64,000 nt of DNA from a virus. Under the pieces are notes generated by a model. The model saw only the letters and a list, made by a program, of their open reading frames with translations. It did not search any database and was not told the DNA's origin. This document shows, piece after piece, positions 3,072 through 47,230 of this stretch. Location: the IMG/VR virus record IMGVR_UViG_3300018080_000112, positions 1-64,000 of that record. One strand, 5' to 3'. The translations under genes were made by a program, and so were the position numbers. Within the stretch, counting starts at the first letter, position 1, and each line of letters begins with the position of its first letter.

Positions 3072-4409
3072 TTAGCCGGTTTTCTTGGGCATTTTGATTT
3101 TAAATGGTTGGTCACTGTACTCATACCCGTCATTCTTCTGGAGTGTTTTCAGATAGCGCGGATGGAAACCATCGACCGCTTTTCCATTGAGAGAACCAGA
3201 AACAGGTTTCAACATGAAAGATGGTTTTTGGCGAATCGTGATGCGACCTCGCCAGATTCCCTTCTTCGTTCCTTTCGTTACATCAGCTTTTACAAAGTCA
3301 CCCGTTTTGAACCCCTGACAAGCCTTGTTTCGAGTACGGTGAGCTTTCGCGAACCCGTGACTGTCTGGCTTGATCATCTTCCGGCTACCATGACCCATGC
3401 ACTTGATATACAGCGGCTTGACGCCGTTCGGTCGAAGATTATCAGGTGTGCTCGCGCCAACACAAGCGGCATCTTCCCAATGGGTCTTGCTCAGACCTCG
3501 CTTGATTCGATTGAACTTCGTGCGACCGCCAGACCCGCTTTCGAGAGGTAACCCGGTATCTTTTAGATGATTGAACAGACACCAGCGTGTTGAGTTGATC
3601 GCCGCCGCATCTCGCAAAGGAGCCTTCGCCTGTTTCAAGATCTTTTTGAGAAGGTCTGGTTTCTTTTTCAAGAACACTTTGATGTCCTTGTCACTCTTCC
3701 TCTTGTTACAAGGCGCACAGGAGAGCGTCAGATTCGAGATGCGATTGGTTCCACCCTTTGCCTTCGGTTGAATGTGTTCGACCTGTAAAGGGCGGTCTTC
3801 TTTCCCACAGTAGACACATTTGCGACCCCACTTCTCCAGGAGGTATTCTTTGACCTCGTACCCGTGGAGTTCGCCTTGCTGATATTCGACACCTTCGATC
3901 TCTGGGTTCTCCATCTTCTGGAAATCGAAGCTTACCAGTTCCATGCTGATTGCACCAACCGGAGCATACTTCATCAGCCGTCGTACCCACGTCATCGTGG
4001 TGAGGACCCGGTGCATCAAAGAAGGAGCCAGCCATCCTTTTGGTTTGGGTCTGTGTCGCCAGCGAGCCGGACGATACCTGGTCTTGCGAGCACGGCGATT
4101 CCGACGAACATCGCGGCGCTTTTTCATCTTGTCGGTGATTTGCCAGCCGCGATGATACAGAACAGCCGCCCAAACGATCTCACCGGTTTTGTCATCTAAC
4201 AGAACAATTCCGGTCTGTTTGCTACCGGGGTCAATTTTAATCCGAAGTGCCGGTGGTGTCTTTTCCTTGACTTCCTTTTTCATGATGATAGTAAAGGGGT
4301 AATAGCGCAACACCGCCGCCTTCCCGTCAGCCAGCAACTTCCTTCCTCTGCTTGGATGGCACGGATAAAGCGGGTTGCGCTCTGCATCTACGACAAAAAC
4401 TCGACTCAT
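3072..4409 (-). CDS. iscB: IscB RNA-guided endonuclease (RRXRR/PLMP, split RuvC, HNH)
   Basis: N-terminal VFVVDAERNPLYPCHP (PLMP domain), RuvC-I IDPGSK, Arg-rich bridge helix RRDVRRNRRARKTRYR, RuvC-II MELVSFD, HNH CVYC...EHIQPKAKGG..NL..SCAPCN, RuvC-III THWEDAACVG. Start set at MSRVF after a CAGGAG RBS. Confidence 0.95.
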   Translation of the reverse strand: MSRVFVVDAERNPLYPCHPSRGRKLLADGKAAVLRYYPFTIIMKKEVKEKTPPALRIKIDPGSKQTGIVLLDDKTGEIVWAAVLYHRGWQITDKMKKRRDVRRNRRARKTRYRPARWRHRPKPKGWLAPSLMHRVLTTMTWVRRLMKYAPVGAISMELVSFDFQKMENPEIEGVEYQQGELHGYEVKEYLLEKWGRKCVYCGKEDRPLQVEHIQPKAKGGTNRISNLTLSCAPCNKRKSDKDIKVFLKKKPDLLKKILKQAKAPLRDAAAINSTRWCLFNHLKDTGLPLESGSGGRTKFNRIKRGLSKTHWEDAACVGASTPDNLRPNGVKPLYIKCMGHGSRKMIKPDSHGFAKAHRTRNKACQGFKTGDFVKADVTKGTKKGIWRGRITIRQKPSFMLKPVSGSLNGKAVDGFHPRYLKTLQKNDGYEYSDQPFKIKMPKKTG

Positions 4410-4450
4410 CTCTGTGTTCTCCTGTGTGTATTTTGGACCCCGGTGTTCGC

Positions 4451-4834
4451 TTATTTCTTGTTCCACGGTTTGAATGTTGCGATGAACTCAAGAGAAGGAA
4501 ACGCCCCCTCGAAATGAAAAGCTCGGTCGTCAACAATCAAGACAGCCAGCGGTTTCTCAATGGGGAAAGAGATCTTCTCCAGTGCGGTTGTGGGTAGACC
4601 ATTGTCCAGCAACCATTTTTTCATCGCATCAATACCGCCTTCTTGTGCGTTTCTGGAAGAGAAGATACAGACCTCAAACTGGTCATCCTGACAGAGGTCC
4701 ATCAGCCATCGAATTGCTCCAGGAACCGGCGGGTCAGGAATCACGTCTGCGCCTTGCCACCGGGAGGAATACGAATGCAATACGCCATCAAAATCAACAG
4801 ATACTGTTTTCGCCATTTCTTTGATCTCCTTCAT
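4451..4834 (-). CDS. HAD-superfamily phosphatase-like protein
   Basis: VSVDFDGVLH motif I; IVDDRA motif IV. Confidence 0.75.
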   Translation of the reverse strand: MKEIKEMAKTVSVDFDGVLHSYSSRWQGADVIPDPPVPGAIRWLMDLCQDDQFEVCIFSSRNAQEGGIDAMKKWLLDNGLPTTALEKISFPIEKPLAVLIVDDRAFHFEGAFPSLEFIATFKPWNKK

Positions 4835-4850
4835 GTTGTCTCAAGTGGAA

Positions 4851-5318
4851 TCACCACTTACTTTGTTTCTCTCGCTTCTTCAGCGCTTTTGTCTTGCTGT
4901 TCTTTGTGACTTTCTTTGCTGGTCTCTCTATTTCGTTCGGTAACCCCTCCGGAAGAATCTCCTCAATAGCGGCGTCAAGAATCTCATCTGAAATAATCAC
5001 ATAGCTCGTAATATCCAGATGTAACCGCCTCATTCCCTCCAGTTCTCTGTTGTAGAACTCAATGGTCACTGGACCCTTCTTTTTCTGTATGGTGCAGATG
5101 CGCCAGCCGACCCGCTCAAATACCCGGCGGACGATATCGATAGCCCCCGAAAAAATGCGGCTTATCTCCCAATCCGTCTTGTAGACCATTTTTTCTTCGC
5201 CGTCATAGTTCTTGAGCAAATAGGCATCAATACGTTTGATCATCTCCTTCGCTTGACCCTTGGCATCATCTGAGATGTGATCAAAAGCTTCTCTGGGGGT
5301 TACAGGAACCATTACCAC
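4851..5318 (-). CDS. Hypothetical protein, tandem paralog 1
   Basis: PVTPREA start; ends KKREKQSKW. Confidence 0.7.
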   Translation of the reverse strand: MVMVPVTPREAFDHISDDAKGQAKEMIKRIDAYLLKNYDGEEKMVYKTDWEISRIFSGAIDIVRRVFERVGWRICTIQKKKGPVTIEFYNRELEGMRRLHLDITSYVIISDEILDAAIEEILPEGLPNEIERPAKKVTKNSKTKALKKREKQSKW

Positions 5319-5671
5319 TTACTCTCGCGCTTCTTTTTGGTCGCCTTTTCTCCACTATCTTCGGGATGTTCGGGGAAGTGCTCGTTCACAATCTTCTCGA
5401 ACACAGCGTCATAACTCTGGAGTAATGCCGCTTTTGTCACTCCGTTGGTGATCTCCCAGACCACAGCGGTCCAACCAGATCGCTTATAGATGACCTCCAC
5501 AGCTTCCTTTACGCCTGCAACAGGAGCCTCTTGACCAAGTGTTATGGTTATCCGACCAGAGCCGCTGTAGTCACTCAACAGCTTCTCATCAATGAGCTTG
5601 ACGAAGCTCTTGATCTGTTGCACCGCCTTATCTGAAAAATTTGTAAACGCTTCCATTGGTGTCACTGGCAT
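5312..5671 (-). CDS. Hypothetical protein, tandem paralog 2
   Basis: MPVTPMEA start; ends KKRESKW. Confidence 0.7.
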   Translation of the reverse strand: MPVTPMEAFTNFSDKAVQQIKSFVKLIDEKLLSDYSGSGRITITLGQEAPVAGVKEAVEVIYKRSGWTAVVWEITNGVTKAALLQSYDAVFEKIVNEHFPEHPEDSGEKATKKKRESKW

Positions 5672-5675
5672 GTCC

Positions 5676-6443
5676 TCACCATTTGCTCTGGCTCTCACGT
5701 TTCTTGAGCGCCTGTTGATGATCCACAGGTTCCTCCGGGTGCTCTCTTCCCCCCGACTTCTCGAACTCACCTTCTGGCAAATTCACCTTGAAGATCTGTT
5801 TGTCACTGACCAACTTGAACTTGTGCTTTGTATCTTTGCCAGTAGCCTCCCAGATCGCATCCTTCCAACCAGCTTCTATGTATTGTTTGATTACCTGATG
5901 GCGAGCGTACAATTTGAGCTTGCTGTACTTCTTTGGAATCTCATAAGTAATGGTGTGCTCTCCGTTGTAGTGTACCCTCAAATACTCATCAATGTTATTG
6001 ATTAGCTGTTTGATCTCTTGTTTCTCGTCATGTGACATAAATTTTGCCGCCTCTTCTGGTCCCACAGGCATCGGTAGTTCTCCTTTCTCCTCTCTTTCTA
6101 CATAAGGTAAACCAGACTCCTTTCTGAACTCCGCCGTCTCCCCTGGAGACATATGCATGTGTCTTGCTTGACCTATTTTTCCGTTACTCTTTTTCTGGAA
6201 ACCGTGGTTGATTCTTGTGTTGATGTCCAGTTTGATCACACCCACCAGCAATTCAATGTTTCCTTCTTCGTCTTTATTGGTCCGCAAGCTGGTGTACATC
6301 ATGGCTTGAACTGGCGAATGCATCTCCACTTCTTCGCCAGAAGGGAGAATCATATAAAGCAAGTCCCCAGCTACCGGGATGTAAATGCGCCTAAACTTTA
6401 CATGGACCGTATTGATCCACCTACACAAAACAAGTTCAGCCAT
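5676..6443 (-). CDS. Hypothetical protein; C-terminal half is paralog 3
   Basis: Internal MPVGPEEA preceded by AAAGGAG; ends KKRESQSKW. Confidence 0.65.
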   Translation of the reverse strand: MAELVLCRWINTVHVKFRRIYIPVAGDLLYMILPSGEEVEMHSPVQAMMYTSLRTNKDEEGNIELLVGVIKLDINTRINHGFQKKSNGKIGQARHMHMSPGETAEFRKESGLPYVEREEKGELPMPVGPEEAAKFMSHDEKQEIKQLINNIDEYLRVHYNGEHTITYEIPKKYSKLKLYARHQVIKQYIEAGWKDAIWEATGKDTKHKFKLVSDKQIFKVNLPEGEFEKSGGREHPEEPVDHQQALKKRESQSKW

Positions 6444-6447
6444 CGTG

Positions 6448-7285: not shown

Positions 7286-7369
7286 TTCTCCTCCTGTTTC
7301 AAGTCTGTTAACCCTTTGTCTTAGCCATCTTCAAAGCTGTTGGCTTAATGCACGTCCTTCGGCTGTATC

Positions 7370-7404
7370 TATAGAGACACAAGTTTTGTCAAAAACGCAC
7401 CACT
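7370..7404 (-). promoter_or_regulatory. Class A bipartite promoter-like motif (A)GTGGT-N4-TTT-N9-TGTGTCTCTRTA; other copies at 12522, 14619, 17516, 19035, 24283, 27174, 34146, 39452, 48548, 60224, 63581
   Basis: 12 copies with an invariant 35-bp span, all upstream of minus-strand genes or RNA clusters. Confidence 0.75.
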
Positions 7405-7417
7405 AGAAATGAAAAAT

Positions 7418-7490
7418 AAGGCTGTTGACTGAAATTCGCAGGGATGAAGAAGGCTGTTGACTAACGCTCAATGACCCGGAAGGCTGTTGC
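7418..7490 (-). repeat. Short-repeat mini-array A (3 repeats, consensus GTCAACAGCCTT)
   Basis: AAGGCTGTTGAC on the + strand; period 30-32 nt. Confidence 0.75.
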
Positions 7491-7512
7491 TGTGGAATGG
7501 TATTTGTAGTTT

Positions 7513-8374: not shown

Positions 8375-9004
8375 TTACAACGAAGAGCTTACTTCGTCCT
8401 CTTCGTCATCATCATCATCACCGTACAGATCCTGTTCCCACCGGCGTTTTGCTTCCAGAGCCTTCGCTTGTATGGTCTCGATATTCTGTCTCTCAGGTTC
8501 TCCGAAATCCAGAATACCGTCTTCATGCCAGATGCATCCAGATGGAACATCCACACCGCTGTAGAAGGTCAAGGAGAAGACCTCATCATGAGTCAAGCGG
8601 CTCTCTTCATCATCGCTGTAAAAGTTGAACATCAAGTTTCTACGGTACGGGTAGAACTCGATCCCGGCGTAATCTTCAGCCACTGCGTTCCAGTCAATCT
8701 GTTTGAAGGACATGAACCCGAGAGGACCGAAATCAACACCGTACTTAGCCAGGAACGAACGAAGCTCAGCAACCTCGCCTGGAAGAGTCAAGATGCGCTC
8801 GTGGTTCAACTTCGGTCGGTAGATGTAGGGGTACGCCCCTAACCAGTCCGGCTGTTCTGAGATGACCCACGCAAGCCATGCATCGCCGATACTGTACCAG
8901 AGTCCCCGTGGTTTGAAGTTGTCCGCGTTCACATCTGCGATGTTTTGGAATTGTAATTCTTCACTGCGGCTGTAGTGGATTCGTTCTAACTTGTTCATGA
9001 TCAC
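8375..9004 (-). CDS. Hypothetical phage protein
   Basis: KPRGLWYS and DVPSGCIW motifs; acidic tail. Confidence 0.65.
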   Translation of the reverse strand: MIMNKLERIHYSRSEELQFQNIADVNADNFKPRGLWYSIGDAWLAWVISEQPDWLGAYPYIYRPKLNHERILTLPGEVAELRSFLAKYGVDFGPLGFMSFKQIDWNAVAEDYAGIEFYPYRRNLMFNFYSDDEESRLTHDEVFSLTFYSGVDVPSGCIWHEDGILDFGEPERQNIETIQAKALEAKRRWEQDLYGDDDDDEEDEVSSSL

Positions 9005-9035
9005 TCCAATGTTAGGACCTAACCTTCAGTCAGGT

Positions 9036-12473: not shown

Positions 12474-12591
12474 CTTCTTACCTCACCTGAAAATTTTAAT
12501 TTTGAACTCTCACGTTTCACCTATAGAGACACACTTTTTCCCAAAAGCGCACCACGGAATCTTAATTTTCTTTGATAATTATGAAGAAAGG

Positions 12592-14214: not shown

Positions 14215-14912
14215 GTGATACGCTCCGAATCAAGAAAGGGTCTCTTTGGGTATAAGAAATATCACGACCTGAAGCAAGCTGAATTACGAGTCCAACAAAT
14301 CTATCCGCGCATTTGTCTTCTCTGTGGGAAACATAATCACACCAAAAATACGGGTCAGAGAATGCATCTCGGTGACTACATCTGTCTGTTTCTGCAAATT
14401 CTTGCACCAGAAGCTTTGTGTGGTTCCATGTGCAATCTGGCGCGTCTGTTTGGCGTAACCCATTCGAGCTAACTGTGAAGGTACTCGGATATCACAGCCG
14501 TCCGGCAACACCACATGAATTTGGGGCAACTGTAACGCATCTGTGGTCACAAACGTTATTTGATGAATTGGGAACGTCATTTCTTTGTCTCCTTGTGTTA
14601 CTCATTTTACCTCTGTGTAATAGAGACACATCAAAGATCAAAACGGAACCAGTAGACAATAAAAAAAGCCGGAGAAGGTTTGTCCTTCCCCGGCTCACTG
14701 CCAACTGGCTCGCTCTAGCCAGTCATCGTAGAGGTGTGTTGTCTGTCAAAACATGAACATTGTTTCCAGGATCTCGCATGCTTCCTTGATGCCGTCGTTG
14801 CATTCGAGATAGGTGCGAAACAATTCCCAGAGAACCAGGAGCACGACAATGACAAGAAGGACCAGCAAAAGCTTCCAGGCTGTTGACCGACTCATCACTT
14901 GCTCCTGTTATT

Positions 14913-15323
14913 TGGAGATGGCGGGATTCGAACCCGCGTCTTGAAACGTCGCTGTAAACGACTCTACGTGTGTAGTCAATCCTTCGTTTCCTTCACCACC
15001 AGAGTCATCAGATTGACAGATTCTCTGGTCAGCTACATCTCATAGTTTAGCCAGCACTAGCGAGATATTCCAGTCGCAGGCGATCTCGTGTATTTTTGCG
15101 TTTCCAGCAAGCCCACAAGCGAACTCACTGGACCCGTGGCGGTCACGCCGCCATTGCCACCGGTTGTTCCACCCGGTAATCCGCCATACTGACGACCTTA
15201 CCAGACGAACGATGTGATTTATTATCGTTGGCAGTTATCAAGTTTTCAGGTTTTTACAGAGCCTCCTGAACCTCTGACACGCATCGGATACCACTCCGCC
15301 CCAATCGATACCAAGTCATCCCC
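14913..15323 (-). ncRNA. ssrA: tmRNA
   Basis: 5' GGGGATG pairs with 3' CATCTCC-A, giving G3-U70. T arm GCGGGTTCGAATCCCGC. Tag frame 15232-15143 follows ATAACT and encodes ANDNKSHRSSGKVVSMADYRVEQPVAMAA*. Confidence 0.92.
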
Positions 15324-16795: not shown

Positions 16796-16831
16796 GGTAA
16801 ATCTCCAAAGTTAGGTCCTAACATTCTAACA

Positions 16832-16959: not shown

Positions 16960-17256
16960 GGTGACCCCCGAAACGCTCAACAGCCAGATGACGTTCCGGG
17001 GGTCATTTGCTTAATCTAATAAGCCATCTCTGCGCCCTCTATGAGAGAACTAACAGGTGTTCGACCGGTGAAGGTCTAGTGAGCCTCGCCAATGCTAATA
17101 ATGCTTGTCACATGAGGTCGGTGTCAGTCAGTACGCCTTGAAGCACCCTGTGTTCCTTCCCCACGAAAGAGCCGGAAACTGGCTCGCGCATTCCGGGTTT
17201 CATGACAAAACTAGCGTAGTCCCCGAAGAGACTGAGGCTGGTCAACATCTGGCTGA
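16960..17256 (-). ncRNA. Stand-alone HEARO/omegaRNA scaffold lacking its 5' guide/GTCAAC strand, with an added 3' hairpin
   Basis: GTTGACCAGCCTCAGTCTCTTCGGGGACTACG..GTCATGAAACCCGGAATGCGCGAGCCAGTTTCCGGCTCTTTCG...TGACAAGC...CATTGGCGAGGCTCAC follows the HEARO motif order, including the GAGCC/GGCTC pseudoknot. Confidence 0.85.
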
Positions 17257-17267
17257 TAAAGAAAAAG

Positions 17268-17377
17268 TAGTGAGGGTAGGATTCGAACCTACATCTGCCG
17301 GTATTTTCACACCCGCCGACTTTCCAATCCGGATCAAGGGGGTCAGCATTACCTGACTCCTTTTAGACCACCTCACC
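17268..17377 (-). tRNA. tRNA-Ser(GGA)-like with an expanded D arm
   Basis: Acceptor GGTGAGG/CCTCACT; T arm GTAGGTTCGAATCCTAC; loop TTGGAAA; long variable arm; extra hairpin in the D arm. Confidence 0.6.
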
Positions 17378-17381
17378 TTAA

Positions 17382-17466
17382 TGGACCGTGATGGATCTGC
17401 ACCACCGACCTCCGAGAGTTTACCTTGCGGTCAGCCCCCGGCGCTCTACTGCTGAGCTAACGATCC
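17382..17466 (-). tRNA. tRNA-like gene whose anticodon arm ends in a GCAA-capped hairpin
   Basis: Acceptor GGATCGT/ACGGTCC; D arm GCTC-AGCAGTA-GAGC; T arm GGTGG-TGCAGAT-CCATC. Confidence 0.6.
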
Positions 17467-17602
17467 CCGTCCAGATGACTTGAAAACTTTTTATTCTTTT
17501 TTCAAACAACATGTATATAGAGACACACCCTACGTCAAAGTGTAACCACTTTTTTTTCAATAAAATTCCACTTTTTTATTCTCCCTTTGAAATCAACGAG
17601 TT

Positions 17603-17794
17603 TCAAGGCTGTTGACACCGGGCTAGTTGAAAAAAGGCTGTTGACTGCGATCTGCAAGACTCTCAAGGCTGTTGACAATGGGGAAATGCCCTTTCAAGGC
17701 TGTTGAGGGGGTGGCAAAGACCTGGCAAGACTGTTGATAGTTAGGTAGAGCGGGGGCACGGCTGTTGACCAGGATTAATGGACCGGCGGTTGAC
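17603..17794 (-). repeat. Short-repeat mini-array E (7 repeats)
   Basis: Repeat ends 17616, 17645, 17676, 17707, 17738, 17769, 17794. Confidence 0.85.
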
Positions 17795-18952: not shown

Positions 18953-19174
18953 TCCGTTCCTTTGTGCTTCCTTTTACTTCCCTTGTGCTTCCTTCTGGTC
19001 AAGATCACTTGACCCGTCAACCCGACTGTTCACTTATAGAGACACATCTTTTTCCAAAGTGACACCACTATTTTTCATTTTGTGTCTGACGTGTGTCGCG
19101 TTGTGACATAGATGAGAAAAAAGTGGAGGGGGACCGAAAGGTTAGGACCTAACTATTCAGTATTCTACTTCTAA

Positions 19175-24260: not shown

Positions 24261-24382
24261 CTCCTAATACAACAGGCATACCAACAGAGACACATCTTTG
24301 TCTAAAAATGCACCACTTTTAGTGTAAATTTCGTGAAATAAGTGGAAATATCTACAAAGGAGGGGGAATAGTTAGGACCTAA

Positions 24383-25390
24383 CTATTTGACTTCATAACG
24401 ATCTCGTACCGCTTCCGCCACGGTATCACCACGCTCGAACGGCTTGACCCAATACAGCACCAGCTTGCGGTCATCACCCGTCCCTACCCAATAATGGTGA
24501 TCGTGACCACGGACCCAATGACGGCGCACCTTGATCCCCGTGGGGTCACCCGGCGAATAATTAAGCTTCACAGACGGCGCAACAACCGTGATGACAGCTT
24601 TGTTTGAGAGAAGATTCAAGCGCTTCTGAAGCTTGCTCCGCTTCCGGTCCTTCATCTTCTTGTTCTTGAGCCGAACCTTGATCTCCTTGATCTCTTCGCT
24701 GTTGTCATGCTTGACAGTTTCCGCATTTGTTGCATTGAGATAGAACAACAAGTTCAACACAATCCGCAACACAGCTTGAACACTATCTGGCTTGTTGAAA
24801 TCAGGAGAGAAATCTTTCAGGTACTCTTCCAGATCGTCTCTGTGATGGCTCAGCATAAAGTTGAAGTTACCGAAACCAGGAGAACCATCCAGCTTCTTTG
24901 TGATGATATGGAACATCACTCGCGGCTTGTCACCAGGTACGTCACGGCTGTTTTCTCGTATCACCTGGAAGTCACTCACATAAGCGCCGATAATACGGTC
25001 AGAGTCTAGTTCATCAGGACCCGCATGCAACAATAGATTCATGGACTCCGGGATCTGTACGTAAAATCCGGGATAGGGGAAGTTGATCGAGTCAATTGGC
25101 AACTTCGGAAGTTTGGTCATGTTCAACATCCAGGCGATATCGTGGCTTAGATGGAACACTTGTTGACCGTACTGTTGGAACTCATAAACGGAGTGACAAG
25201 CCATCACAAGGATACGCTGGAATTCAATACGAGAATCAAACATGTTGATCCAACTTTCGAGATTCCGGTCTGCAATAGCTTGCAAATAGGATGTGTAAAC
25301 AACGCCTGTAAGCGGGTCTTTTATAAATGTTTCATGGTGTACGTTTTGAGATATAGCCTGAATGTTCATAACAATCTCCCCTGATTGCAA
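24383..25390 (-). CDS. Hypothetical phage protein
   Basis: 335 aa; C-terminal RRHWVRGH motif. Confidence 0.7.
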   Translation of the reverse strand: MQSGEIVMNIQAISQNVHHETFIKDPLTGVVYTSYLQAIADRNLESWINMFDSRIEFQRILVMACHSVYEFQQYGQQVFHLSHDIAWMLNMTKLPKLPIDSINFPYPGFYVQIPESMNLLLHAGPDELDSDRIIGAYVSDFQVIRENSRDVPGDKPRVMFHIITKKLDGSPGFGNFNFMLSHHRDDLEEYLKDFSPDFNKPDSVQAVLRIVLNLLFYLNATNAETVKHDNSEEIKEIKVRLKNKKMKDRKRSKLQKRLNLLSNKAVITVVAPSVKLNYSPGDPTGIKVRRHWVRGHDHHYWVGTGDDRKLVLYWVKPFERGDTVAEAVRDRYEVK

Positions 25391-26098: not shown

Positions 26099-26767
26099 TT
26101 ATTTCTTTGTTCGTTCCTTCAAGCCCTTATAACGCTTTTGTCCTTCGTCTGTCAGCACCACGCATTCGCTATGTTTGACGTACCGACACAAGCCCACATC
26201 GATCAAGTAGCTCACAATCTTGCTGTGTAGCTGTAGCCGCTCAACAGACATCCGGATCGGCTCATAGTCACCGACACAAGCCAGAATCTCGCGTTGTAGG
26301 GGTGTGAGAGGGTACTTGGAAGCATGCGCCGGGTTGCCCTTGGTGCGAACGACCCGGTCGCCGTGATCCGGCGCGTATTCAATCACAAAGACCTCATCCA
26401 GCCCAAGGTTCTTTGCAAACTGCGCCATGTAGTGCTTCTGACAGTCCACACAGTAACACTTCATGCTGGCGGGTCCGTTGCTGGAGTTGTGATAGACACC
26501 CTTGTTCTCCGCCTCGTTGAAGATGTGAAGGCGCTGTTCTTTGGTCATTTCCTTTTGATCTCGCTCATAGCGGACGGTTGCAACCACTTCGCCGCAGTTG
26601 TGGCAAACGAGACCAATGATCGGCTCTTTGTGATGCTTGACCCAGTCGCCAGAGCCAAGTTCGAGACCATCAATTTTGATGGGTGCGCTGTCTGGATCGT
26701 GGCGGTCTATGTTTTGATAAGTCATGATTTTGACTCCTTCGTGGAGGTTAAAAAGGTCAACTTGCAC
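26099..26767 (-). CDS. Hypothetical protein sharing N-terminal CxxC and C-terminal domain with 23125-23991
   Basis: YPLT..QR.I ... L.D.GL ... LT..G.KRY.G. Confidence 0.6.
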   Translation of the reverse strand: MQVDLFNLHEGVKIMTYQNIDRHDPDSAPIKIDGLELGSGDWVKHHKEPIIGLVCHNCGEVVATVRYERDQKEMTKEQRLHIFNEAENKGVYHNSSNGPASMKCYCVDCQKHYMAQFAKNLGLDEVFVIEYAPDHGDRVVRTKGNPAHASKYPLTPLQREILACVGDYEPIRMSVERLQLHSKIVSYLIDVGLCRYVKHSECVVLTDEGQKRYKGLKERTKK

Positions 26768-27207
26768 AGAACGAGGGCAAGACTTTCTTCTGACTCGTGT
26801 TAGGACCTAACTCACTTCCCATTCAGCTTGTACAGCGCACCGGCGGACCCGCCGAACAACAGGACACCCGCCACATTGAAACCATCAAACAAACGGCTCT
26901 CCGGGCTGTGACACAGCAACAAGAACCCCACAGCGAGACAACAAAACAACACAACATCAATCTTCTTCATCACACATACCTCTTTTTTTGCGCTTCCAGT
27001 TCCAATTGATCTGAACCTCATCGATGAACCCCAGAACAACCACGAACGCAATCAAGCGAAACAAATCCAACTTTCCATCCACCACACAAAACACCCACAC
27101 AAGCCCAACAAGACCCGCAACGGCTAACAGATACCCGAACACACTTTCAAACCTCATTACGTCACCTCTACCCAACAGAGACACACCTCAGAAGCAAATG
27201 ACACCGC

Positions 27208-28071: not shown

Positions 28072-28140
28072 GTTCCTTGCTCCTTCTGGATGTTAAAAAA
28101 TCGACTGTCTTATATTTATGAGGGCAAGACTTTTTTCTGA

Positions 28141-28494
28141 CTATCTCAGCTTGACAGCTTGCAGCGCTTTGATCCGCATTTTGTACATCACAATCAACCG
28201 TTGCTTCTGGAGTCGCACATTGGCGAAGAGCTTCTTTGCGCTCTCTGCAAGCTCTTTGAAATCTTCCTTGGACATCTGCGCCTTGAACTGGTCTCGGTTG
28301 GCTCGCCAGCCAGCCGGAGAGAGATACAGGAACCCCATATCGCGACCGATCACCGGCTCATCTTTCGAAGAGATCTCCATGAACCACTCATCAGGAAGCT
28401 CAACCATCTTGTGTGTCGTGTGTTTGGTCTGCGTTGGAACCTGCAGACTCTTGAACGTCACCACATTGTTTTCCCAACCCTTCAGTATCTTCAT
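28141..28494 (-). CDS. Hypothetical protein
   Basis: AAGGAG RBS. Confidence 0.6.
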   Translation of the reverse strand: MKILKGWENNVVTFKSLQVPTQTKHTTHKMVELPDEWFMEISSKDEPVIGRDMGFLYLSPAGWRANRDQFKAQMSKEDFKELAESAKKLFANVRLQKQRLIVMYKMRIKALQAVKLR

Positions 28495-29365: not shown

Positions 29366-29525
29366 TTGCTTTCTCCTTCGAGAGTTAAAATTTTTGCGTC
29401 ACAAAATAACGAGGGCAAGACTTTTTTCTGACTCTGATCTTTTTGTGAGATCAAGCTGGAAGGAATCTGAAAGTTAGGACCTAACTATTTAGGGGCTGTT
29501 CTTCTAACTATAAGAAGGAGAGAGC

Positions 29526-34105: not shown

Positions 34106-34230
34106 GCTCGCCTCCTGTCAAAATGGTTTCAATACATGACTCCCTTATAGAGACACATCTATTGTCAAAGTTGAACCGTTTGGGCTTGAAATAAAAAAGT
34201 AGAAGGGTAAGAAACGCTTGTGGTTAGGAC

Positions 34231-34992
34231 CTAACTTTTTTCCTGACTCCGTTTTTCCATCGCCTCAACAAAAGCATCCCACATTTCACGAAGCGGGATC
34301 TTCCAAGTCTCCCCCGTCCCCTTTTGCGAGAAGTACGGCGCTCCGTTGATCCCCCCGTGAACGTGACCAATCTTTGTTTCCCCGTCATCATCAAAAACCT
34401 CTGCGCCGCCCGTGAAAAAGGTCAGAATCCCCTCTGTATGCCTTGGTGACATCACCAGCTTCAATGGAACTTGAATCATGATCTCTTCATCTGGCGGACC
34501 CTTGATGCGCTCCTCATATGGAATACGAACCGGGTCCTCAAGATCGTCATGGTTTCCGTTGTCAACGTCCGGGCTGGTCTCTTCGATCTGTTCCTCTACA
34601 GGTTCCTCTGTTTCCTCTGTGGGGTTTTCTCTTGTCCGTGGTAGGTTGAGAGGATTCGCCGCTTTTGCGGCTCGCGCCAACTCCTCTTGTGACGCTTCGT
34701 ATCCATCTGGGTCCACAAAATGCCACCAAGCAATCGTACCGTCTATGTGTTCAAACAGAACCGCAATATCTGGCGGACCCGGTCGGTGGTCATGTTGAAA
34801 AGGGGGGTTCTTTGTCCATCCCAGAATAGTCCACCCCGCGCCGTGGTCCTCTTTTACCAAGCAAGGTTCTTTCCCCTCATTGAACCGCCACTTGATACGG
34901 AAAGGAGGCAACGGGCTTGCTGTGTGTGGTCCGTAGTTCAGGCGATTAAGCCGAGAACTATTAATCCTTTTTAATCCATCAAAAAGTAACAT
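34231..34992 (-). CDS. Hypothetical protein
   Basis: ORF track. Confidence 0.6.
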   Translation of the reverse strand: MLLFDGLKRINSSRLNRLNYGPHTASPLPPFRIKWRFNEGKEPCLVKEDHGAGWTILGWTKNPPFQHDHRPGPPDIAVLFEHIDGTIAWWHFVDPDGYEASQEELARAAKAANPLNLPRTRENPTEETEEPVEEQIEETSPDVDNGNHDDLEDPVRIPYEERIKGPPDEEIMIQVPLKLVMSPRHTEGILTFFTGGAEVFDDDGETKIGHVHGGINGAPYFSQKGTGETWKIPLREMWDAFVEAMEKRSQEKS

Positions 34993-38780: not shown

Positions 38781-38809
38781 CTCCTATTTGCTAGGTTAGG
38801 TCCTAACTA

Positions 38810-39487
38810 TCAGACAAAAAGTTGTGGCTCATCAGATTCGGAGATCATCTGTAACAGTTTGACAATCAAAGAGGTCACAAACAGCCCTCTCCCGTCATCA
38901 GAGCCGTCTTGGAAACACTCTTCATCAATTGCATGCAAGTGATCCAGAACATGCTTGATCCGCGCTTTTGCGTGCTCCTTTCCGTGTTTGACCTCCAGAG
39001 TGCGATGGAACACACCCGCCAGCATCTCCAGGAGCGCTTTGGCGTCACCCACGAGACGGTCCAGATCTACCTCTCCAGCAACGCTGACATAAGAATTGGG
39101 GGAAATATCGGAAGGAAACATCTCCGGCGCTTCTGGCGGCTCCTCCGTTGCTTCTGACACAACCTCCGGCGAAACATCCGCACCGATCTCATCCCCCATG
39201 ACCAGATCATCTTCGAGACCTGGAACCATATGCATCAACATCTCGAATTTCTCTTGCAAGAGGTTCATCTCGCAACGTCCGCAGAGAACGACCCCTTTGT
39301 TGACACAGGACAAACACAAAACCGCGCCGCAATCATCACACTTCGGGAGATCCTCATCTGAAACATGAGAAGGAATCTGTGTGCGACAACCTGAAGCATG
39401 ACAGAGAACTCGATAGCTCATTCTTTCGCCTTTCGCTAAAATGTTTCTACCTACAGAGACACATGTTTTACGGAAGTGTAACCACAA
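38810..39487 (-). CDS. Hypothetical zinc-finger protein
   Basis: Multiple CxxC motifs; start is likely MSYRV. Confidence 0.6.
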   Translation of the reverse strand: MWLHFRKTCVSVGRNILAKGERMSYRVLCHASGCRTQIPSHVSDEDLPKCDDCGAVLCLSCVNKGVVLCGRCEMNLLQEKFEMLMHMVPGLEDDLVMGDEIGADVSPEVVSEATEEPPEAPEMFPSDISPNSYVSVAGEVDLDRLVGDAKALLEMLAGVFHRTLEVKHGKEHAKARIKHVLDHLHAIDEECFQDGSDDGRGLFVTSLIVKLLQMISESDEPQLFV

Positions 39488-41629: not shown

Positions 41630-41694
41630 TGCGCTTGAAAAAATGAGGGCAAGACTTTTTTCTGACTGTGATCTGAATCAGACTGGAAAGGGAA

Positions 41695-43200: not shown

Positions 43201-43221
43201 TGGGTCCTCTCCTATTACTTA

Positions 43222-44319: not shown

Positions 44320-44369
44320 CTCTCAAAACTCCCAATTGTTAGGTCCTAACTTTTCAAAGCTACGGACGA

Positions 44370-44798
44370 TTACCATTCACTCCTGGACGCTCTCTTTTCG
44401 AGCTTGGAGTGCTTCTTTTTCGACTCCGCCTCTTTCTCTTGCTCCTTTCTCTCCTGGATAGTTACGATCCACTTAGGGCGCTCTTTCATCCAGTCTGTCT
44501 TTGTGTACTTTTCCCACTGATTATTTGTGGGCTGTGTGAAAATCTTCAGATACCACCAGACATAAGACACAGCTAACACATAAATCGAATCATCAACTTC
44601 TTCTCGCTGTCGCCTCAAACACTCCGGGTCCACATCCATGGCACCAGCCAATGTTTCAAGTTCAACACGAACTCCTGGTCTTCTTGAAATTCCAGCTTTG
44701 TGAACTTTATCTCGTATCTGTTCTTTCTCAGCCAACAAGATGGTCTGTACCATCATCAAGAACTGGTTGTAATAATCTGTTGGCGAACTGATATTCAT
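44370..44798 (-). CDS. Hypothetical protein
   Basis: Ends EKRASRSEW. Confidence 0.6.
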   Translation of the reverse strand: MNISSPTDYYNQFLMMVQTILLAEKEQIRDKVHKAGISRRPGVRVELETLAGAMDVDPECLRRQREEVDDSIYVLAVSYVWWYLKIFTQPTNNQWEKYTKTDWMKERPKWIVTIQERKEQEKEAESKKKHSKLEKRASRSEW

Positions 44799-45127
44799 CT
44801 CTCCGCCTTTTCGACTACCCCGCTTTCCAGGTCAACCCAACCAATGAATCCATAACGCCATCCCAACCCAGCCGGAGAATCCGGTATGCGACCCGGCGGC
44901 TCTTTGAATGTATTCTGTGAACCTACGGCAAGGAATTGCATATGACCCACGTTGACCGAATCAAGAGCCATATTTTGATATACAGCCCAACGGGTATCTT
45001 CGTGGTTATACGGCGAGGTTTTCATCTCTTCGAGCGTCTCTGGCTCGACCTGTAGCGTCTTCTCTCCCATCTTATTCTCCCCTGTTACTTCGTTGTTATC
45101 TTTTCCTGAACTTCCTCCCCTTGTCAT
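44795..45127 (-). CDS. Hypothetical protein
   Basis: ORF track. Confidence 0.55.
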   Translation of the reverse strand: MTRGGSSGKDNNEVTGENKMGEKTLQVEPETLEEMKTSPYNHEDTRWAVYQNMALDSVNVGHMQFLAVGSQNTFKEPPGRIPDSPAGLGWRYGFIGWVDLESGVVEKAER

Positions 45128-45330
45128 CCAACCACAACACGGGAAGATTCTCCGGACCCTTGTCCTGAATCATCAGGTCATAATCCGCCGCAAGCGTCAT
45201 CACACCCTCCAGAGTCAACTGAAATGTGTAGATAGAATCTTGCTGGACCGCTCGCGGATGTGGTGGTTTATTCCCCATCCAATGACAAACCTGAAATTTC
45301 ACCATGGCTTTTCCTATCTTAGATTCTCAA

Positions 45331-45541
45331 AGTAAATCCCCATGTATATGGGGAATACTCCAACTCGCTGTCAGAGAAGATCTCCTTGACCGGAATATCC
45401 CCATGTATATGGGGAATACAGCCACAACCGTAAAATGGTGCCAAATAAACATGGAATATCCCCATGTATATGGGGAATACGGTCATCAAGGAGACGAGCG
45501 AAATCGAGCTTGCGGAATATCCCCATGTATATGGGGAATAC
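45331..45541 (-). CRISPR. CRISPR array 1: 4 repeats GTATTCCCCATATACATGGGGATATTCC and 3 spacers of 33 nt
   Basis: Repeats at 45331 (degenerate terminal), 45392, 45453, 45514; period 61; type I-E-like palindromic repeat. Confidence 0.95.
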
Positions 45542-45687
45542 TCTTCTTCTGTTCACCACGCTGTTTCGTATTCCTTTACACATGGATTTTACTGCTTCAC
45601 AGGCTATTGCCGTTAACGGTCTTACATAAGCCTCCACAGTCAGAACCGTCATATTCAGCCGGTTATAGAACTTAATACTCATCTTCT
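45542..45687 (-). ncRNA. TnpB reRNA-derived tracr-like RNA, copy 1
   Basis: AACCG-GCTGAATATGA-CGGTT..CTGTGGAGGCTTATGTAAGACC..GCCTGTGAAGCAG resembles IS605 tnpB right-end RNA. It is followed by the anti-repeat CCATGTGTAAAGGAATAC (45568-45585). Confidence 0.8.
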
Positions 45688-46835
45688 AAAACAGTGACGC
45701 CTTTTTGTTTTAAGATAGACGCCGCTTCTTTCCTTATGTTGATTGCTGCATTGATGTCGCGGTCATGTTTTACACGACAACAAGGACAGGTCCAGTTTCG
45801 AACAGAAAGAGGGAGTTTGTCTAACACCTCGCCGCAAACATAACAAGTTTTGCTGGAAGGAAAAAAACGATCAATTTTCACAAGGTGACCGCCGGTTCTC
45901 TGCATCCGCGTCTCAATTCTAGTTCCAAAAGCGCCCCAACTGGCGTCTGCAATCGCCTTTGACAATTTTCTGTTCTTTTGCATGTTCTTTACTTGCAAGG
46001 TTTCCAATCCCACAGCTTGTACGTCTTTCAATGTTGCTGCAATCATCTGGTGTTGATATGTCTCTCGCTTATTTGCAACCTGTGCTTCTCTCTTTGCGAC
46101 AACAATACGAGCCTTTTCTTGGTTTTTTGACCCCTTCTTCTTTCTGGAGTATTTGCGCTTCTTTCGCCGTAAATTATCTTGCGCTTTCTTCAAGAACTTA
46201 GGATTGTCAACCTTCTCTCCCTCAGACGTAATGAACAAGTGAGTCAAACCAAGGTCAAGACCCACAACATCATCAACTTCCGTTAATTTTTTCGGATACT
46301 TCAAACCATCATCAATCAACAGAGACATGTAATACTTAGCTGTAGAAGCTCTTTTTAGTGTACATGTCTTTATCTTTGCGCCGTCTGGAATATTGCGATA
46401 AACATTTGCCTTTACCCATCCGATCTTTGGAATCCAGACCCGTTTATAATCATCTGATACACGAACACCACAAGGATATCCTGCAGACTGACAATGGTTA
46501 CTTTTTTTCTTGAATTTTGGAAAATTGGCGCGTCCTTCAAAGAAGTTAACAAACGCACGATGGAGATTCATAACAGCCTGATTCATCACATCACGCGGCG
46601 CTTTTCGTAGCCACGGATTCTTTTTAATCAAGTCATTCAACCGCCGCATCATGCTATGTGCGTCTACTTTGACCCGCAAACGAATTTTTTCACCCGTGAA
46701 AGGAGATTCTTTATAGATCATCTTTCGCCATGCCAGCATATTATTAAATACCCAGCGTGACACATCAAAATGGTCCTGGAATTTCAATTTTTGTTCCTCT
46801 GTTGGTTTCAGTGGAACTTTGATTCCATACATCAT
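45672..46835 (-). CDS. tnpB: TnpB (IS200/IS605 OrfB) RNA-guided nuclease, CRISPR-associated
   Basis: HTH_OrfB-like N-terminus, FPKFKKK, RuvC triad GLDLGL / GLETL / HDRDINAAINI, and Zn ribbon CYVCG..CPCC. Start MMYG follows GGAGGAG. No tnpA nearby. Confidence 0.95.
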   Translation of the reverse strand: MMYGIKVPLKPTEEQKLKFQDHFDVSRWVFNNMLAWRKMIYKESPFTGEKIRLRVKVDAHSMMRRLNDLIKKNPWLRKAPRDVMNQAVMNLHRAFVNFFEGRANFPKFKKKSNHCQSAGYPCGVRVSDDYKRVWIPKIGWVKANVYRNIPDGAKIKTCTLKRASTAKYYMSLLIDDGLKYPKKLTEVDDVVGLDLGLTHLFITSEGEKVDNPKFLKKAQDNLRRKKRKYSRKKKGSKNQEKARIVVAKREAQVANKRETYQHQMIAATLKDVQAVGLETLQVKNMQKNRKLSKAIADASWGAFGTRIETRMQRTGGHLVKIDRFFPSSKTCYVCGEVLDKLPLSVRNWTCPCCRVKHDRDINAAINIRKEAASILKQKGVTVLEDEY

Positions 46836-46873
46836 AATCTTCGATCTCCTCCGGTTACAAAAGCACATAAAAC

Positions 46874-47084
46874 CTTATATCCCCATGTATATGGGGAATA
46901 CCTCAACCCTTCATCATCTGGGTCAAAGAGTAGGGGAATATCCCCGTGTATATGGGGAATACTCGCCGATTGGCCTGTGTGGTGAAGTCAAGTCGGGAAT
47001 ATCCCCGCGTATATGGGGAATACTTCCTGGTCCACTTTTTGTTCCTCTCGCTGGTCGGAATATCCCCGCGTATATGGGGAATAC
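46874..47084 (-). CRISPR. CRISPR array 2: 4 repeats GTATTCCCCATATAC(GC/AC/AT)GGGGATATTCC and 3 spacers of 33 nt
   Basis: Repeats at 46874 (degenerate), 46935, 46996, 47057. Confidence 0.95.
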
Positions 47085-47230
47085 TCTTCTTCTGTTCACC
47101 ACGCTGTTTCGTATTCCTTTACACACGGATTTTACTGCTTCACAGGCTATTGCCGTTAACGGTCTTATATAAGCCTCCACAGTCAGAACCGTCATATTCA
47201 GCCGGTTATAGAACTTAATACTCATCTTCT
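47085..47230 (-). ncRNA. TnpB reRNA-derived tracr-like RNA, copy 2
   Basis: Direct repeat of 45542-45687 with 2 substitutions; anti-repeat CCGTGTGTAAAGGAATAC. Confidence 0.8.

What the first reader, a model, noticed from the sequence alone, without database searches (positions are those of the whole stretch)
3072..47230. One genome apparently domesticating both OMEGA nucleases into array-guided forms
The Cas9 ancestor (IscB) and the Cas12 ancestor (TnpB) both occur without a transposase, each with an apparently split guide RNA and its own array type in the correct polarity: spacer-then-repeat for IscB, repeat-then-spacer for TnpB. Inference: this phage lineage may be a setting where class 2-like systems arise de novo, perhaps for inter-phage competition.
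Basis: inference. Interest (0 to 1): 0.75.

Follow-up and report, generated by a model that had tools for sequence, protein, structure and literature searches.

The report
Phage TnpB arrays; IscB without arrays
A 144-kb phage from marine sediment and seawater samples carries a TnpB nuclease wired to two small CRISPR-like arrays, which is a known type of transposon-to-CRISPR intermediate, and a conserved IscB nuclease whose guide-RNA scaffold lies 13 kb away; the short repeats proposed as IscB's guide arrays look like gene-regulation sites, so only half of the 'double domestication' idea holds.

Summary
Both nucleases are real and intact, and the 144-kb virus record has no TnpA, Cas1 or Cas6e.

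TnpB (45672-46835, minus strand) is bracketed by two 4-repeat arrays with 28-nt repeats and 33-nt spacers. Each array follows a ~150-nt copy of the TnpB 3' scaffold. The scaffold contains an 18-nt anti-repeat that pairs with the repeat (7 bp + 9 bp). One anti-repeat change is compensated in its own array. This fits the published TranC class (TnpB-to-Cas12 intermediates), one of which comes from a phage. This scan has noted more than 30 similar phage loci on other DNA.

IscB (3072-4409) is under strong purifying selection (dN/dS about 0.05) in three related phages and has no adjacent omegaRNA. A single HEARO-type omegaRNA lies at 17074-17257, behind a tRNA-like gene.

The proposed IscB 'arrays' are 13-14-nt boxes phased at 31 bp. 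Their last copies abut ribosome-binding sites or phage promoters. The layout is kept in a related phage. They resemble operator or stoperator-like sites more than guide arrays.

In some samples the phage lacks TnpB and one array. No spacer turnover was seen in four samples.

Verdict: partly supported. TnpB is a new member of a known kind; the IscB array idea is unsupported.

The parts
3072..4409 (-). iscB, 445 aa, RuvC (RRXRR) plus HNH; no transposase and no adjacent omegaRNA
   Evidence: Pfam. PDB IscB hits, e.g. OgeuIscB 7xht at 9e-28. 86-89% identical orthologues occur in two related phage contigs with the same neighbours. dN/dS is 0.04-0.06.
4451..4816 (-). 121-aa HAD-like gene that abuts iscB and occupies the place where a cis omegaRNA would lie
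   Evidence: Sequence; weak Pfam HAD_SAK_2 match; conserved in L033 and L034.
17074..17257 (-). Orphan HEARO-type omegaRNA scaffold with a minimal first stem
   Evidence: cmscan RF02033: 58 bits (gathering score 83), E 9e-11, model positions 1-211. It is the only match in the genome. It aligns with the cis omegaRNAs of IscB homologues from the pseudoknot strand onward but lacks their ~50-nt first hairpin.
16962..17003 (-). 13-bp hairpin after the omegaRNA; its loop holds an inverted copy of the box core
   Evidence: Sequence. RNAduplex against the box gives -15.9 kcal/mol versus shuffles at -11.3 +/- 1.9. It lies 64 and 128 nt from two degenerate boxes, so it may simply belong to the local box cluster.
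17268..17377 (-). tRNA-like gene that ends 10 nt before the omegaRNA scaffold
   Evidence: Rfam tRNA match, 33 bits, with long insertions; not called by ARAGORN.
45672..46835 (-). tnpB, 387 aa, with the RuvC D/E/D motifs and the zinc finger aligned to solved TnpB
   Evidence: Pfam. PDB: ISDra2 TnpB 8h1j at 2e-49 and LaTranC 9jfq at 2e-29. The best non-self homologues are 41-47% identical ordinary TnpBs.
45542..45692 (-). Scaffold B: the last TnpB codons plus a ~130-nt structured RNA, with the anti-repeat at 45568-45585
   Evidence: It is the 180-nt duplicate of 47056-47235. The anti-repeat/repeat duplex is -22.2 kcal/mol; 3.7% of shuffles are as good.
45331..45541 (-). Array B: 4 repeats of 28 nt and 3 spacers of 33 nt; the last repeat is degenerate
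   Evidence: It is identical in the contigs of three metagenome runs that cover it whole and in a fourth that covers most of it.
46874..47084 (-). Array A: 4 repeats and 3 different spacers; it ends 38 nt before the tnpB start codon
47085..47235 (-). Scaffold A: a copy of scaffold B that still includes the last five TnpB codons; anti-repeat at 47111-47128
   Evidence: Only 5 differences occur in 180 nt. One is in the anti-repeat (47126) and two are in the first repeat (47068-47069).
57167..59270 (-). The three largest box arrays in the window (57167-57363, 57863-58155, 59014-59270), alternating with small genes
   Evidence: In all three the last box lies 12-20 nt before a start codon, at the Shine-Dalgarno sequence. 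One sample has an extra unit after 58023.
7301..7490 (-). Box cluster that flanks a phage promoter motif and reaches the ribosome-binding site of the next gene
   Evidence: the related phage L034 has the same order of boxes, promoter motif, box, ribosome-binding site and conserved gene, with unrelated linkers.
17605..17768 (-). Box array of 6-7 units directly upstream of the promoter motif that drives the tRNA-like/omegaRNA unit
55389..56570 (-). 393-aa protein with three helix-turn-helix modules, including sigma-70 region 4; a candidate box-binding regulator (inference only)
   Evidence: PHROGs and Pfam.

Best explanation
The phage carries two separate, transposase-free OMEGA-derived modules. 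Only one of them is array-guided.

(1) TnpB is a TranC-like system. It is probably one operon on the minus strand: scaffold A, array A, tnpB, scaffold B, array B. The scaffold acts as a tracr-like RNA. Its 18-nt anti-repeat pairs with the 5' two-thirds of each 28-nt repeat. This leaves a 9-nt tail and then the spacer as a 3' guide. The scaffold, first repeat and first spacer can also fold in cis as an ordinary single omegaRNA. The six spacers then direct TnpB to cut foreign DNA, most plausibly competing phages. The targets are unknown and acquisition seems inactive.

(2) IscB is a domesticated phage gene. Its omegaRNA is made in trans from a tRNA-like operon 12.7 kb away. It most likely works with whatever short 5' flank that RNA retains, giving a fixed guide and a homing or exclusion type of use. 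Alternatively it has a role not yet defined.

(3) The dispersed boxes are cis-regulatory sites, either operator or stoperator-like on DNA or leader elements on RNA. They are not a guide store for IscB.

Shown: the gene content, the architecture, the complementarity, the selection on IscB, and the placement of the boxes. Inferred: RNA processing, use of the guides, the targets, and which protein binds the boxes.
For: TnpB. The nuclease motifs are intact and the protein is close to solved TnpB and LaTranC. The arrays lie on the TnpB strand with an exact 61-nt period and degenerate distal repeats. The scaffold-plus-first-repeat block is duplicated at 97% identity in front of both arrays and carries the last TnpB codons, so it derives from the TnpB 3' end. 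The anti-repeat/repeat duplex has 7 + 9 bp; the minimum-free-energy fold of the cis transcript contains it, and 3.7% of shuffles reach its energy. Of the 5 differences between the copies, the anti-repeat A-to-G change is matched by U-to-C in all three full repeats of array A. This weakens the repeat's own hairpin (-10.5 to -8.6 kcal/mol), and cognate pairs beat scaffold B with repeat A (-23.2 and -22.2 versus -19.1). No Cas6e or Cas1 was found in the phage. The published TranC class has TnpB-sized effectors, 3-20 repeats, no adaptation genes and a tracr between the gene and the array, and one member comes from a Caudoviricetes genome.

IscB. dN/dS is 0.04-0.06 across three phages with conserved synteny and no cis omegaRNA. 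There is a single full-length HEARO match elsewhere in the genome.

Boxes. There are 62 on the gene strand versus 2 on the other. 55 of 62 lie outside ORFs although 86% of the genome is coding. The spacing mode is 31 nt, about three helical turns. The last box lies 12-20 nt before a start codon in at least five clusters and directly before the promoter motif in four. The layout is conserved in L034 while the linkers are not. A triple-HTH protein is encoded next to the largest arrays.
Against: No RNA data exist for this phage. No protospacer was found, so no TAM and no proof that TnpB uses the spacers.

The scaffold shows no sequence similarity to the omegaRNAs of TnpB homologues. On its own it can fold into three hairpins plus a tail, like a complete omegaRNA, so the first repeat could instead be the guide.

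The repeat has the exact geometry of a type I-E repeat, and all spacers are 33 nt. This points to a Cas1-Cas2 ruler and possibly to use by a host Cascade.

The covariation is a single event.

TnpB plus array A is absent from the phage in one sample and from part of the population in another, so the module is dispensable.

For IscB, the closest non-phage relatives (59% identity) are CRISPR-associated. The linker length of about 17 nt equals an IscB guide. The box begins with the 6-nt HEARO first-stem consensus. The omegaRNA region has 7-nt and 9-nt complements to the box. A guide-array role is therefore unlikely but not excluded.
Confidence: 0.55

Rival explanations
1. Both nucleases are array-guided. 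IscB uses the orphan omegaRNA as a tracr-like scaffold, and the dispersed linker-plus-box units act as crRNA-like guides (spacer then repeat). They dock by box/omegaRNA pairing, as a de novo Cas9-like split.
For: Linkers of 16-19 nt equal the IscB guide length. On the gene strand the box starts with the HEARO first-stem consensus and can pair over 7 nt with the 3' strand of the omegaRNA's first stem. A 9-nt complement sits in the 3' hairpin loop; 1.3% of shuffles reach that duplex energy. The omegaRNA has only 10 nt of 5' flank after the tRNA-like gene and a truncated first stem. IscB homologues at 59% identity are CRISPR-associated, with a repeat that pairs to the omegaRNA 5' region.
Against: Boxes are only 13-14 nt and occur in more than 13 clusters over about 97 kb. 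The last box abuts a Shine-Dalgarno sequence or the promoter motif, and this layout is conserved in a related phage. The 31-bp phase fits proteins binding one face of the DNA. The box is a TCAA-N5-TTGA near-palindrome, which by itself produces the 6-nt resemblance to a stem. The loop 'anti-repeat' is in phase (64 and 128 nt) with neighbouring degenerate boxes. The omegaRNA still closes its own first stem. No linker target could be tested.
Confidence: 0.07
2. The two arrays are type I-E-style mini-arrays that work with a host Cascade and Cas3 and were filled by host Cas1-Cas2. TnpB is an ordinary omegaRNA-guided nuclease whose right end happens to abut the first repeat. Its guide would then be the repeat itself, for example for homing next to such repeats or for cutting them. 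TnpB does not use the spacers.
For: The repeat geometry is 5 nt, a 6-bp C-rich stem, a 4-nt loop and an 8-nt handle, with a 61-nt period, as in type I-E (from my own knowledge of the E. coli repeat; sequence). All spacers are uniformly 33 nt. The scaffold alone folds as three hairpins plus a 14-nt tail, like the complete omegaRNA of a homologue whose end was mapped from two copies. A TnpB-less allele keeps scaffold and array B intact.
Against: No array with this repeat was found in 185,579 species genomes, in IMG/VR or in JGI metagenomes. A guide complementary to its own scaffold over 16 bp would be self-sequestering. The compensatory change preserves scaffold/repeat pairing while the Cas6e-type hairpin is weakened in array A. 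The scaffold is duplicated in front of the second array even though no second tnpB is there.
Confidence: 0.2
3. Both loci are decaying leftovers of IS200/IS605-type elements with no present function. The arrays and the orphan omegaRNA are inert debris.
For: No transposase was found. TnpB plus array A is lost in some populations. No spacer change was seen across the four samples laid. Orphan omegaRNAs are common transposon derivatives in phages (Meers et al., bioRxiv 10.1101/2023.03.14.532601, listed, content recalled from my own knowledge).
Against: IscB is under strong purifying selection in three phages. TnpB is full length with its catalytic motifs. Two scaffold copies remain 97% identical with a compensatory change. 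The omegaRNA matches the whole HEARO model.
Confidence: 0.1

Closest known systems
TranC (transposon-CRISPR intermediate) systems: Jin et al., Cell 2025, known here through citing papers (PMC13565253; bioRxiv 10.64898/2026.03.27.714800; 10.1101/2025.09.28.678669) and through the LaTranC structures 9jfo and 9jfq. The class includes the phage-borne, TnpB-sized CauTranC9.
   Same: TnpB-like effector of TnpB size. No adaptation genes. A short array of 4 repeats. A tracr-like anti-repeat lies in the region between the gene and the array, which derives from the right-end RNA. The locus is on a phage.
   Different: The repeats are 28 nt with type I-E-like geometry; 32-38 nt is reported for TranC. Two arrays bracket the gene, each with its own scaffold copy fused directly to the first repeat. 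At sequence level the protein is nearer to ISDra2-type TnpB (2e-49) than to LaTranC (2e-29, C-terminal part only). Clade membership was not tested.
ISDra2-type TnpB with a single omegaRNA/reRNA (IS200/IS605)
   Same: The same fold and motifs. A structured RNA is encoded at and after the 3' end of the gene, with the guide at its 3' side.
   Different: There is no TnpA and no recognisable transposon ends. The scaffold is followed by an array instead of one flank-derived guide.
IscB with a cis HEARO omegaRNA, and CRISPR-associated IscB (e.g. DelIscB, PMC12660989; loci L037-L039 found here)
   Same: RuvC plus HNH protein that is 55-59% identical to bacterial IscBs. A HEARO-type RNA is present in the genome.
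   Different: The omegaRNA is 12.7 kb from the gene, behind a tRNA-like gene, and lacks the long first hairpin. There is no 36-nt-repeat array next to iscB. There is no transposon context.
Protein-less, PATE-like omegaRNA elements (Meers et al. 2023, bioRxiv 10.1101/2023.03.14.532601; content recalled from my own knowledge)
   Same: An omegaRNA scaffold without an adjacent nuclease gene, possibly served in trans by an IscB encoded elsewhere.
   Different: No transposon-end hairpins were identified. The first stem is truncated and the RNA is embedded in a tRNA-like operon, so it looks fixed rather than mobile.
Phage intergenic regulatory repeats: Cluster A mycobacteriophage stoperators (PMC9283540) and Cluster K start-associated sequences (PMC3203893; content recalled from my own knowledge)
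   Same: A short asymmetric motif of about 13 bp, in tens of copies, intergenic and co-oriented with transcription. Some copies lie immediately upstream of start codons.
   Different: Here the motifs form tandem arrays of up to about 19 units at a strict 31-bp phase. The binding factor is unknown.

Membership tests
TranC / minimal type V (TnpB-derived, array-guided) | TnpB/Cas12-type RuvC nuclease with an intact catalytic triad | tested here: met
   Pfam domains. The alignment to solved TnpB shows the D, E and D motifs and the CxxC...CxxC zinc finger.
TranC / minimal type V (TnpB-derived, array-guided) | CRISPR array beside the effector on the same strand, in repeat-then-spacer polarity | tested here: met
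   Two 4-repeat arrays with a 61-nt period and degenerate distal repeats.
TranC / minimal type V (TnpB-derived, array-guided) | tracr-like RNA derived from the right-end RNA, with an anti-repeat | tested here: met
   The 18-nt anti-repeat pairs 7 + 9 bp with the repeat. 3.7% of shuffles reach the energy, and there is one compensatory change. Derivation from an omegaRNA rests on position only; no sequence similarity to homologues' omegaRNAs was found.
TranC / minimal type V (TnpB-derived, array-guided) | Spacer-directed DNA cleavage | not testable with these tools
   No RNA run is listed and no protospacer was found.
TranC / minimal type V (TnpB-derived, array-guided) | Phylogenetic placement in a described TranC clade | not tested
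Type I-E CRISPR array (host-dependent mini-array) | Stem-loop repeat of 28-29 nt with 32-33-nt spacers | tested here: met
   The comparison with the E. coli repeat is from my own knowledge.
Type I-E CRISPR array (host-dependent mini-array) | A cognate Cas6e/Cascade/Cas1-2 system, in the phage or in a host with the same repeat | tested here: not met
   No Cas6e or Cas1 in the phage. The repeat was not found in GTDB species genomes, IMG/VR or JGI metagenomes. The host is unknown, so this is 'not found', not 'absent'.
IscB (OMEGA) | RuvC split by an HNH domain | tested here: met
IscB (OMEGA) | omegaRNA (HEARO) encoded directly upstream of iscB | tested here: not met
   A coding gene fills the upstream space. 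No HEARO match occurs in L033 or L034, whereas homologues L036-L039 have one at 103-122 bits. The only HEARO match in the phage is 12.7 kb away, at 58 bits against a gathering score of 83.
IscB (OMEGA) | IS200/IS605 context (TnpA, transposon ends) | tested here: not met
   No Y1 transposase in the genome. Synteny is fixed in three phages.
CRISPR-associated IscB / Cas9-like array guidance | Array of longer repeats (36 nt in the relatives found here) with unique spacers, and an anti-repeat in the omegaRNA | tested here: not met
   Relatives L037-L039 have 36-nt repeats with 13 of 14 nt complementary to the omegaRNA 5' end. The phage has only 13-14-nt boxes with 7-9 nt of complementarity.
Stoperator- or operator-like phage regulatory repeats | Short asymmetric motif in many copies, intergenic, co-oriented with transcription, placed at promoters or start sites | tested here: met
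Stoperator- or operator-like phage regulatory repeats | Bound by a phage regulator, with an effect on expression | not testable with these tools
   The candidate triple-HTH protein at 55389-56570 is an inference only.

The most novel reading that the evidence does not exclude
The phage IscB is guided by 31-nt linker-plus-box RNAs cut from more than 13 dispersed arrays. These RNAs dock on a trans-encoded, tRNA-processed omegaRNA. This would be an independent, phage-born reinvention of the crRNA/tracrRNA split with ultra-short repeats, sitting in the same genome as a TnpB that made the analogous split.
Probability: 0.06. Interest if true: 0.9.

Novelty: new variant of a known kind. Interest (0 to 1): 0.4.

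Why it matters
The TnpB locus is one more natural example of the step from a single transposon guide RNA to a tracr-plus-array format. Three features are unusual: a duplicated scaffold in front of each array, a compensatory anti-repeat/repeat change, and repeats shaped like type I-E repeats with uniform 33-nt spacers. These raise a testable idea: a phage TnpB may read arrays that a host Cas1-Cas2 can fill.

The IscB result shows that a phage lineage can keep IscB under strong selection with no transposon and with its omegaRNA moved into a tRNA-like operon. This is a handle on what OMEGA nucleases do for phages.

Showing that the abundant 31-bp-phased boxes are probably regulatory prevents a false 'new CRISPR-like system' claim. 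It also points to an uncharacterised phage regulon.

Tried and rejected
- Relatives of the TnpB locus. None were found in IMG/VR by protein or by repeat, in GTDB genomes (the one hit is a terminator hairpin in Alteromonas) or in JGI metagenomes. The best TnpB homologue loci (45% identity) have no arrays.
- Spacer targets. There are no self matches, no match in 50,697 phage records, and no exact 24-nt match for the two leader-proximal spacers in IMG/VR. The other four spacers were not scanned.
- RNA evidence. No RNA holder is listed. Only DNA contigs could be laid.
- Relatives carrying the omegaRNA region. The adjacent 122-aa gene has no homologue other than itself. Conservation of the orphan omegaRNA and its hairpin could therefore not be tested.
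- Box arrays elsewhere. The only IMG/VR hit (G402, 29 kb) has two exact boxes inside an unrelated iteron-like region and no IscB or HEARO match. This is uninformative.
- A fixed 16-nt guide taken from the omegaRNA's 5' flank has no other match in the genome.
- The tail after the omegaRNA shows no similarity to regions downstream of IscB homologues. A PATE-like right end could not be shown.
- IS insertion into one pre-existing array was considered and rejected. The right end is followed by a complete repeat, and the upstream scaffold copy carries TnpB codons.
- The 161-nt contig with the B-type anti-repeat at 47126 in runs X1 and X3 was not used as evidence. Both scaffold copies share the 41 nt beside it, so assemblers can cross between them.

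Full report
Setting. The window is the first 64 kb of a 143,941-bp IMG/VR virus record, estimated 89% complete. Nearly all genes lie on the minus strand. The phage is found in sediment and seawater metagenome runs from five studies. It has no close relative among 50,697 deposited phages.

The TnpB locus: what is there.
- The ORF 45672-46868 has the three TnpB Pfam domains. A ribosome-binding site places the likely start at 46835, giving 387 aa.
- It aligns over its whole length with solved ISDra2 TnpB (E 2e-49) and, in the RuvC/zinc-finger part, with LaTranC (2e-29). The alignment shows the D, E and D motifs and the zinc finger.
- On the same strand there are eight copies of a 28-nt repeat at an exact 61-nt period: four downstream of the gene and four upstream. 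They are the only copies in the genome.
- The six spacers are all 33 nt and all different. The last repeat of each array is degenerate at its 3' end.
- Each array is preceded by the same 180-nt block, 97% identical between the copies. The block begins with the last five TnpB codons and ends with the first repeat. The upstream copy is therefore a duplicate of the TnpB 3' region.

The TnpB locus: is the nuclease tied to the arrays?
The scaffold segment 45568-45585 pairs with repeat positions 1-7 and 11-19 (7 + 9 bp around a 3x3 loop). This leaves 9 nt before the spacer.
- The minimum-free-energy fold of the cis transcript contains this pairing. RNAduplex gives -22.2 kcal/mol against -15.9 +/- 2.8 for shuffled repeats, and 3.7% of shuffles are as good.
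- The two blocks differ at only five positions. One is an A/G in the anti-repeat. Its partner in the repeat is U in array B and C in all three full repeats of array A. This is a compensatory change.
- The same change weakens the repeat's own hairpin (-10.5 to -8.6 kcal/mol). Scaffold B with the array A repeat is the worst combination, at -19.1.
- It is one event, so the evidence is suggestive rather than conclusive. It favours a tracr-like duplex over a Cas6-type hairpin.
- The phage has no Cas6e, Cas1 or TnpA.
- This architecture is what the literature calls TranC: TnpB-sized effectors, short arrays, no adaptation genes, and a right-end RNA functionally split into tracrRNA and crRNA. One member, CauTranC9, comes from a Caudoviricetes genome. 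This scan has also recorded more than 30 phage TnpB-plus-mini-array loci in other genomes.

The TnpB locus: caveats.
- The scaffold has no detectable sequence similarity to the omegaRNAs of homologues.
- Folded alone, it forms three hairpins and a 14-nt tail. This resembles the complete omegaRNA of a 40%-identical homologue whose right end I mapped from two genomic copies. A reading in which the first repeat is itself the guide is therefore not excluded.
- The repeat has the geometry of a type I-E repeat, and the spacers have the 33-nt length that a I-E Cas1-Cas2 would insert (from my own knowledge). Filling by a host, or even use by a host, is possible.
- Against that, no array with this repeat was found in GTDB species genomes, IMG/VR or JGI metagenomes.
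- No protospacer was found.

Natural variation.
- Contigs from four metagenome runs were laid on 44.5-59.5 kb.
- In run X4 a 4.4-kb contig joins 45583 to 47127, and nothing covers tnpB. In run X2 the joined and the full forms coexist.
- The missing 1,543 nt are tnpB plus array A, lost by recombination between the two scaffold copies. The remaining allele keeps the TnpB codons, so it is derived from the full form. The module is dispensable and unstable.
- Arrays A and B are identical wherever they are covered, so no spacer turnover is visible in samples from 2018 to 2021.

IscB.
- The ORF is a bona fide IscB and is 55-59% identical to bacterial IscBs.
- Two related phage contigs have 86-89% identical orthologues in the same tight gene cluster. 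The 121-aa HAD-like gene ends about 25-40 nt before iscB, and neither contig has a HEARO match.
- dN/dS is 0.04-0.06. This is a selected phage gene, not a decaying insertion.
- Homologues at 58-59% identity carry a canonical HEARO omegaRNA (103-122 bits) directly upstream.
- In the phage, the only HEARO match is at 17074-17257, 12.7 kb away on the same strand. It scores 58 bits over the whole model at E about 1e-10.
- That omegaRNA starts 10 nt after a tRNA-like gene, in a unit driven by a phage promoter motif. It lacks the ~50-nt first hairpin of the cis omegaRNAs.
- The observation 'IscB separated from its guide scaffold' is therefore correct. Orphan omegaRNAs are, however, a known class and recur in phages in this scan.

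The proposed IscB arrays.
- The candidates are boxes with an 11-nt core that reads TCAACAGCCTT on the gene strand.
- There are 62 copies with at most one mismatch on that strand against 2 on the other. 55 of the 62 lie outside ORFs in a genome that is 86% coding. The modal spacing is 31 nt. They form more than 13 clusters between 7 and 97 kb.
- Points for a link to IscB. The linkers are about 17 nt. The box begins with the HEARO first-stem consensus and can pair over 7 nt with the omegaRNA. A 9-nt complement sits in the loop of the hairpin at 16962-17003; 1.3% of shuffles reach that duplex energy. The IscB homologues in L037-L039 turned out to be CRISPR-associated, with 36-nt repeats, spacer content that varies between samples, and a repeat that pairs with the omegaRNA 5' end.
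- Points against. In at least five clusters the last box ends 12-20 nt before a start codon, immediately at the Shine-Dalgarno sequence. In four others it is followed directly by the phage promoter motif.
- In the related phage L034 the same order is kept in front of the orthologous gene (boxes, promoter motif, box, ribosome-binding site), while every linker differs.
- The 31-bp phase is three helical turns. The box is a TCAA-N5-TTGA near-palindrome, which by itself produces the stem-like hexamers.
- The loop 'anti-repeat' lies 64 and 128 nt from two degenerate boxes, so it is probably just another box.
- A protein with three HTH modules is encoded beside the largest arrays.
- Tens of short, asymmetric, co-oriented intergenic sites are known from mycobacteriophages as stoperators and start-associated sequences.
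- I therefore read the boxes as a regulatory system. I give the guide-array reading about 6%.

Verdict. The composite claim is half right. One genome does hold both OMEGA nucleases without a transposase. TnpB is plausibly array-guided in the known TranC manner. IscB is domesticated with a trans omegaRNA, but there is no credible array for it. Nothing shows de novo origin of the systems in this lineage or identifies their targets.

Noticed in passing
window 14912-15323 (-): The phage encodes a full-length tmRNA (Rfam 133 bits; ARAGORN gives a 29-residue tag peptide ending in AMAA).
   Followed up: no
window 17268-17466 (-): Two tRNA-like genes lie in tandem behind a phage promoter motif. One is a 110-nt Rfam tRNA match with long insertions. 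The other starts with a canonical acceptor and D-arm sequence but was not called by ARAGORN or Rfam. The omegaRNA follows them.
   Followed up: partly
window 7368-7405, 12520-12557, 17512-17556, 19033-19070, 24281-24318, 34144-34181, 39450-39487, 48546-48583, 60222-60259 and others: A promoter-like motif of about 38 nt occurs in at least 11 copies upstream of minus-strand genes. It probably serves a phage-specific sigma factor or RNA polymerase. A sigma-70 region 4 protein is encoded at 55389-56570.
   Followed up: partly
window 1030-1065, 26760-26795, 28107-28142, 29398-29433, 41632-41667, 52572-52607, 53389-53424, 62132-62167: A second conserved repeat of about 23 nt occurs in eight copies. 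In run X1, contigs join 52607 to about 53399, between two of these copies. This may be a deletion variant or an assembly crossing.
   Followed up: no
window 3017-3039, 9002-9032, 16801-16831, 19138-19160, 24368-24390, 29470-29492, 34220-34242, 38786-38816, 44329-44359: A 13-nt perfect palindrome (GTTAGGNCCTAAC) recurs just upstream of gene starts. It looks like another operator-like site or a small hairpin.
   Followed up: no
window 60699-61068 and 63123-63179: Dense iteron-like tandem repeats (14-nt, 28-nt and 23-nt units) lie in a region of strongly negative GC skew. This is a possible replication origin.
   Followed up: no
window 45583/47127 junction: There is a natural deletion allele without tnpB and array A. 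It is the only form seen in run X4 and is mixed with the full form in run X2.
   Followed up: yes
window 58023: Run X4 carries one extra box-plus-linker unit (27 nt) and many substitutions in the linkers at 57638-57892, while the flanking genes are nearly identical. The box arrays gain or lose units and their linkers evolve fast.
   Followed up: partly
L037:1750-3957, also L038 and L039: IscB homologues at 59% identity have both a cis HEARO omegaRNA (122 bits) and a downstream CRISPR array of 36-nt repeats (8, 7 and at least 3 copies). Spacer content differs between samples. Part of the repeat is complementary to the omegaRNA 5' end.
   Followed up: partly
window 47222-47938 (-): A 238-aa ORF with no Pfam or PHROG match reads 12 nt into scaffold A. 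It is retained in the independent contig L015 and in the TnpB-less allele.
   Followed up: no
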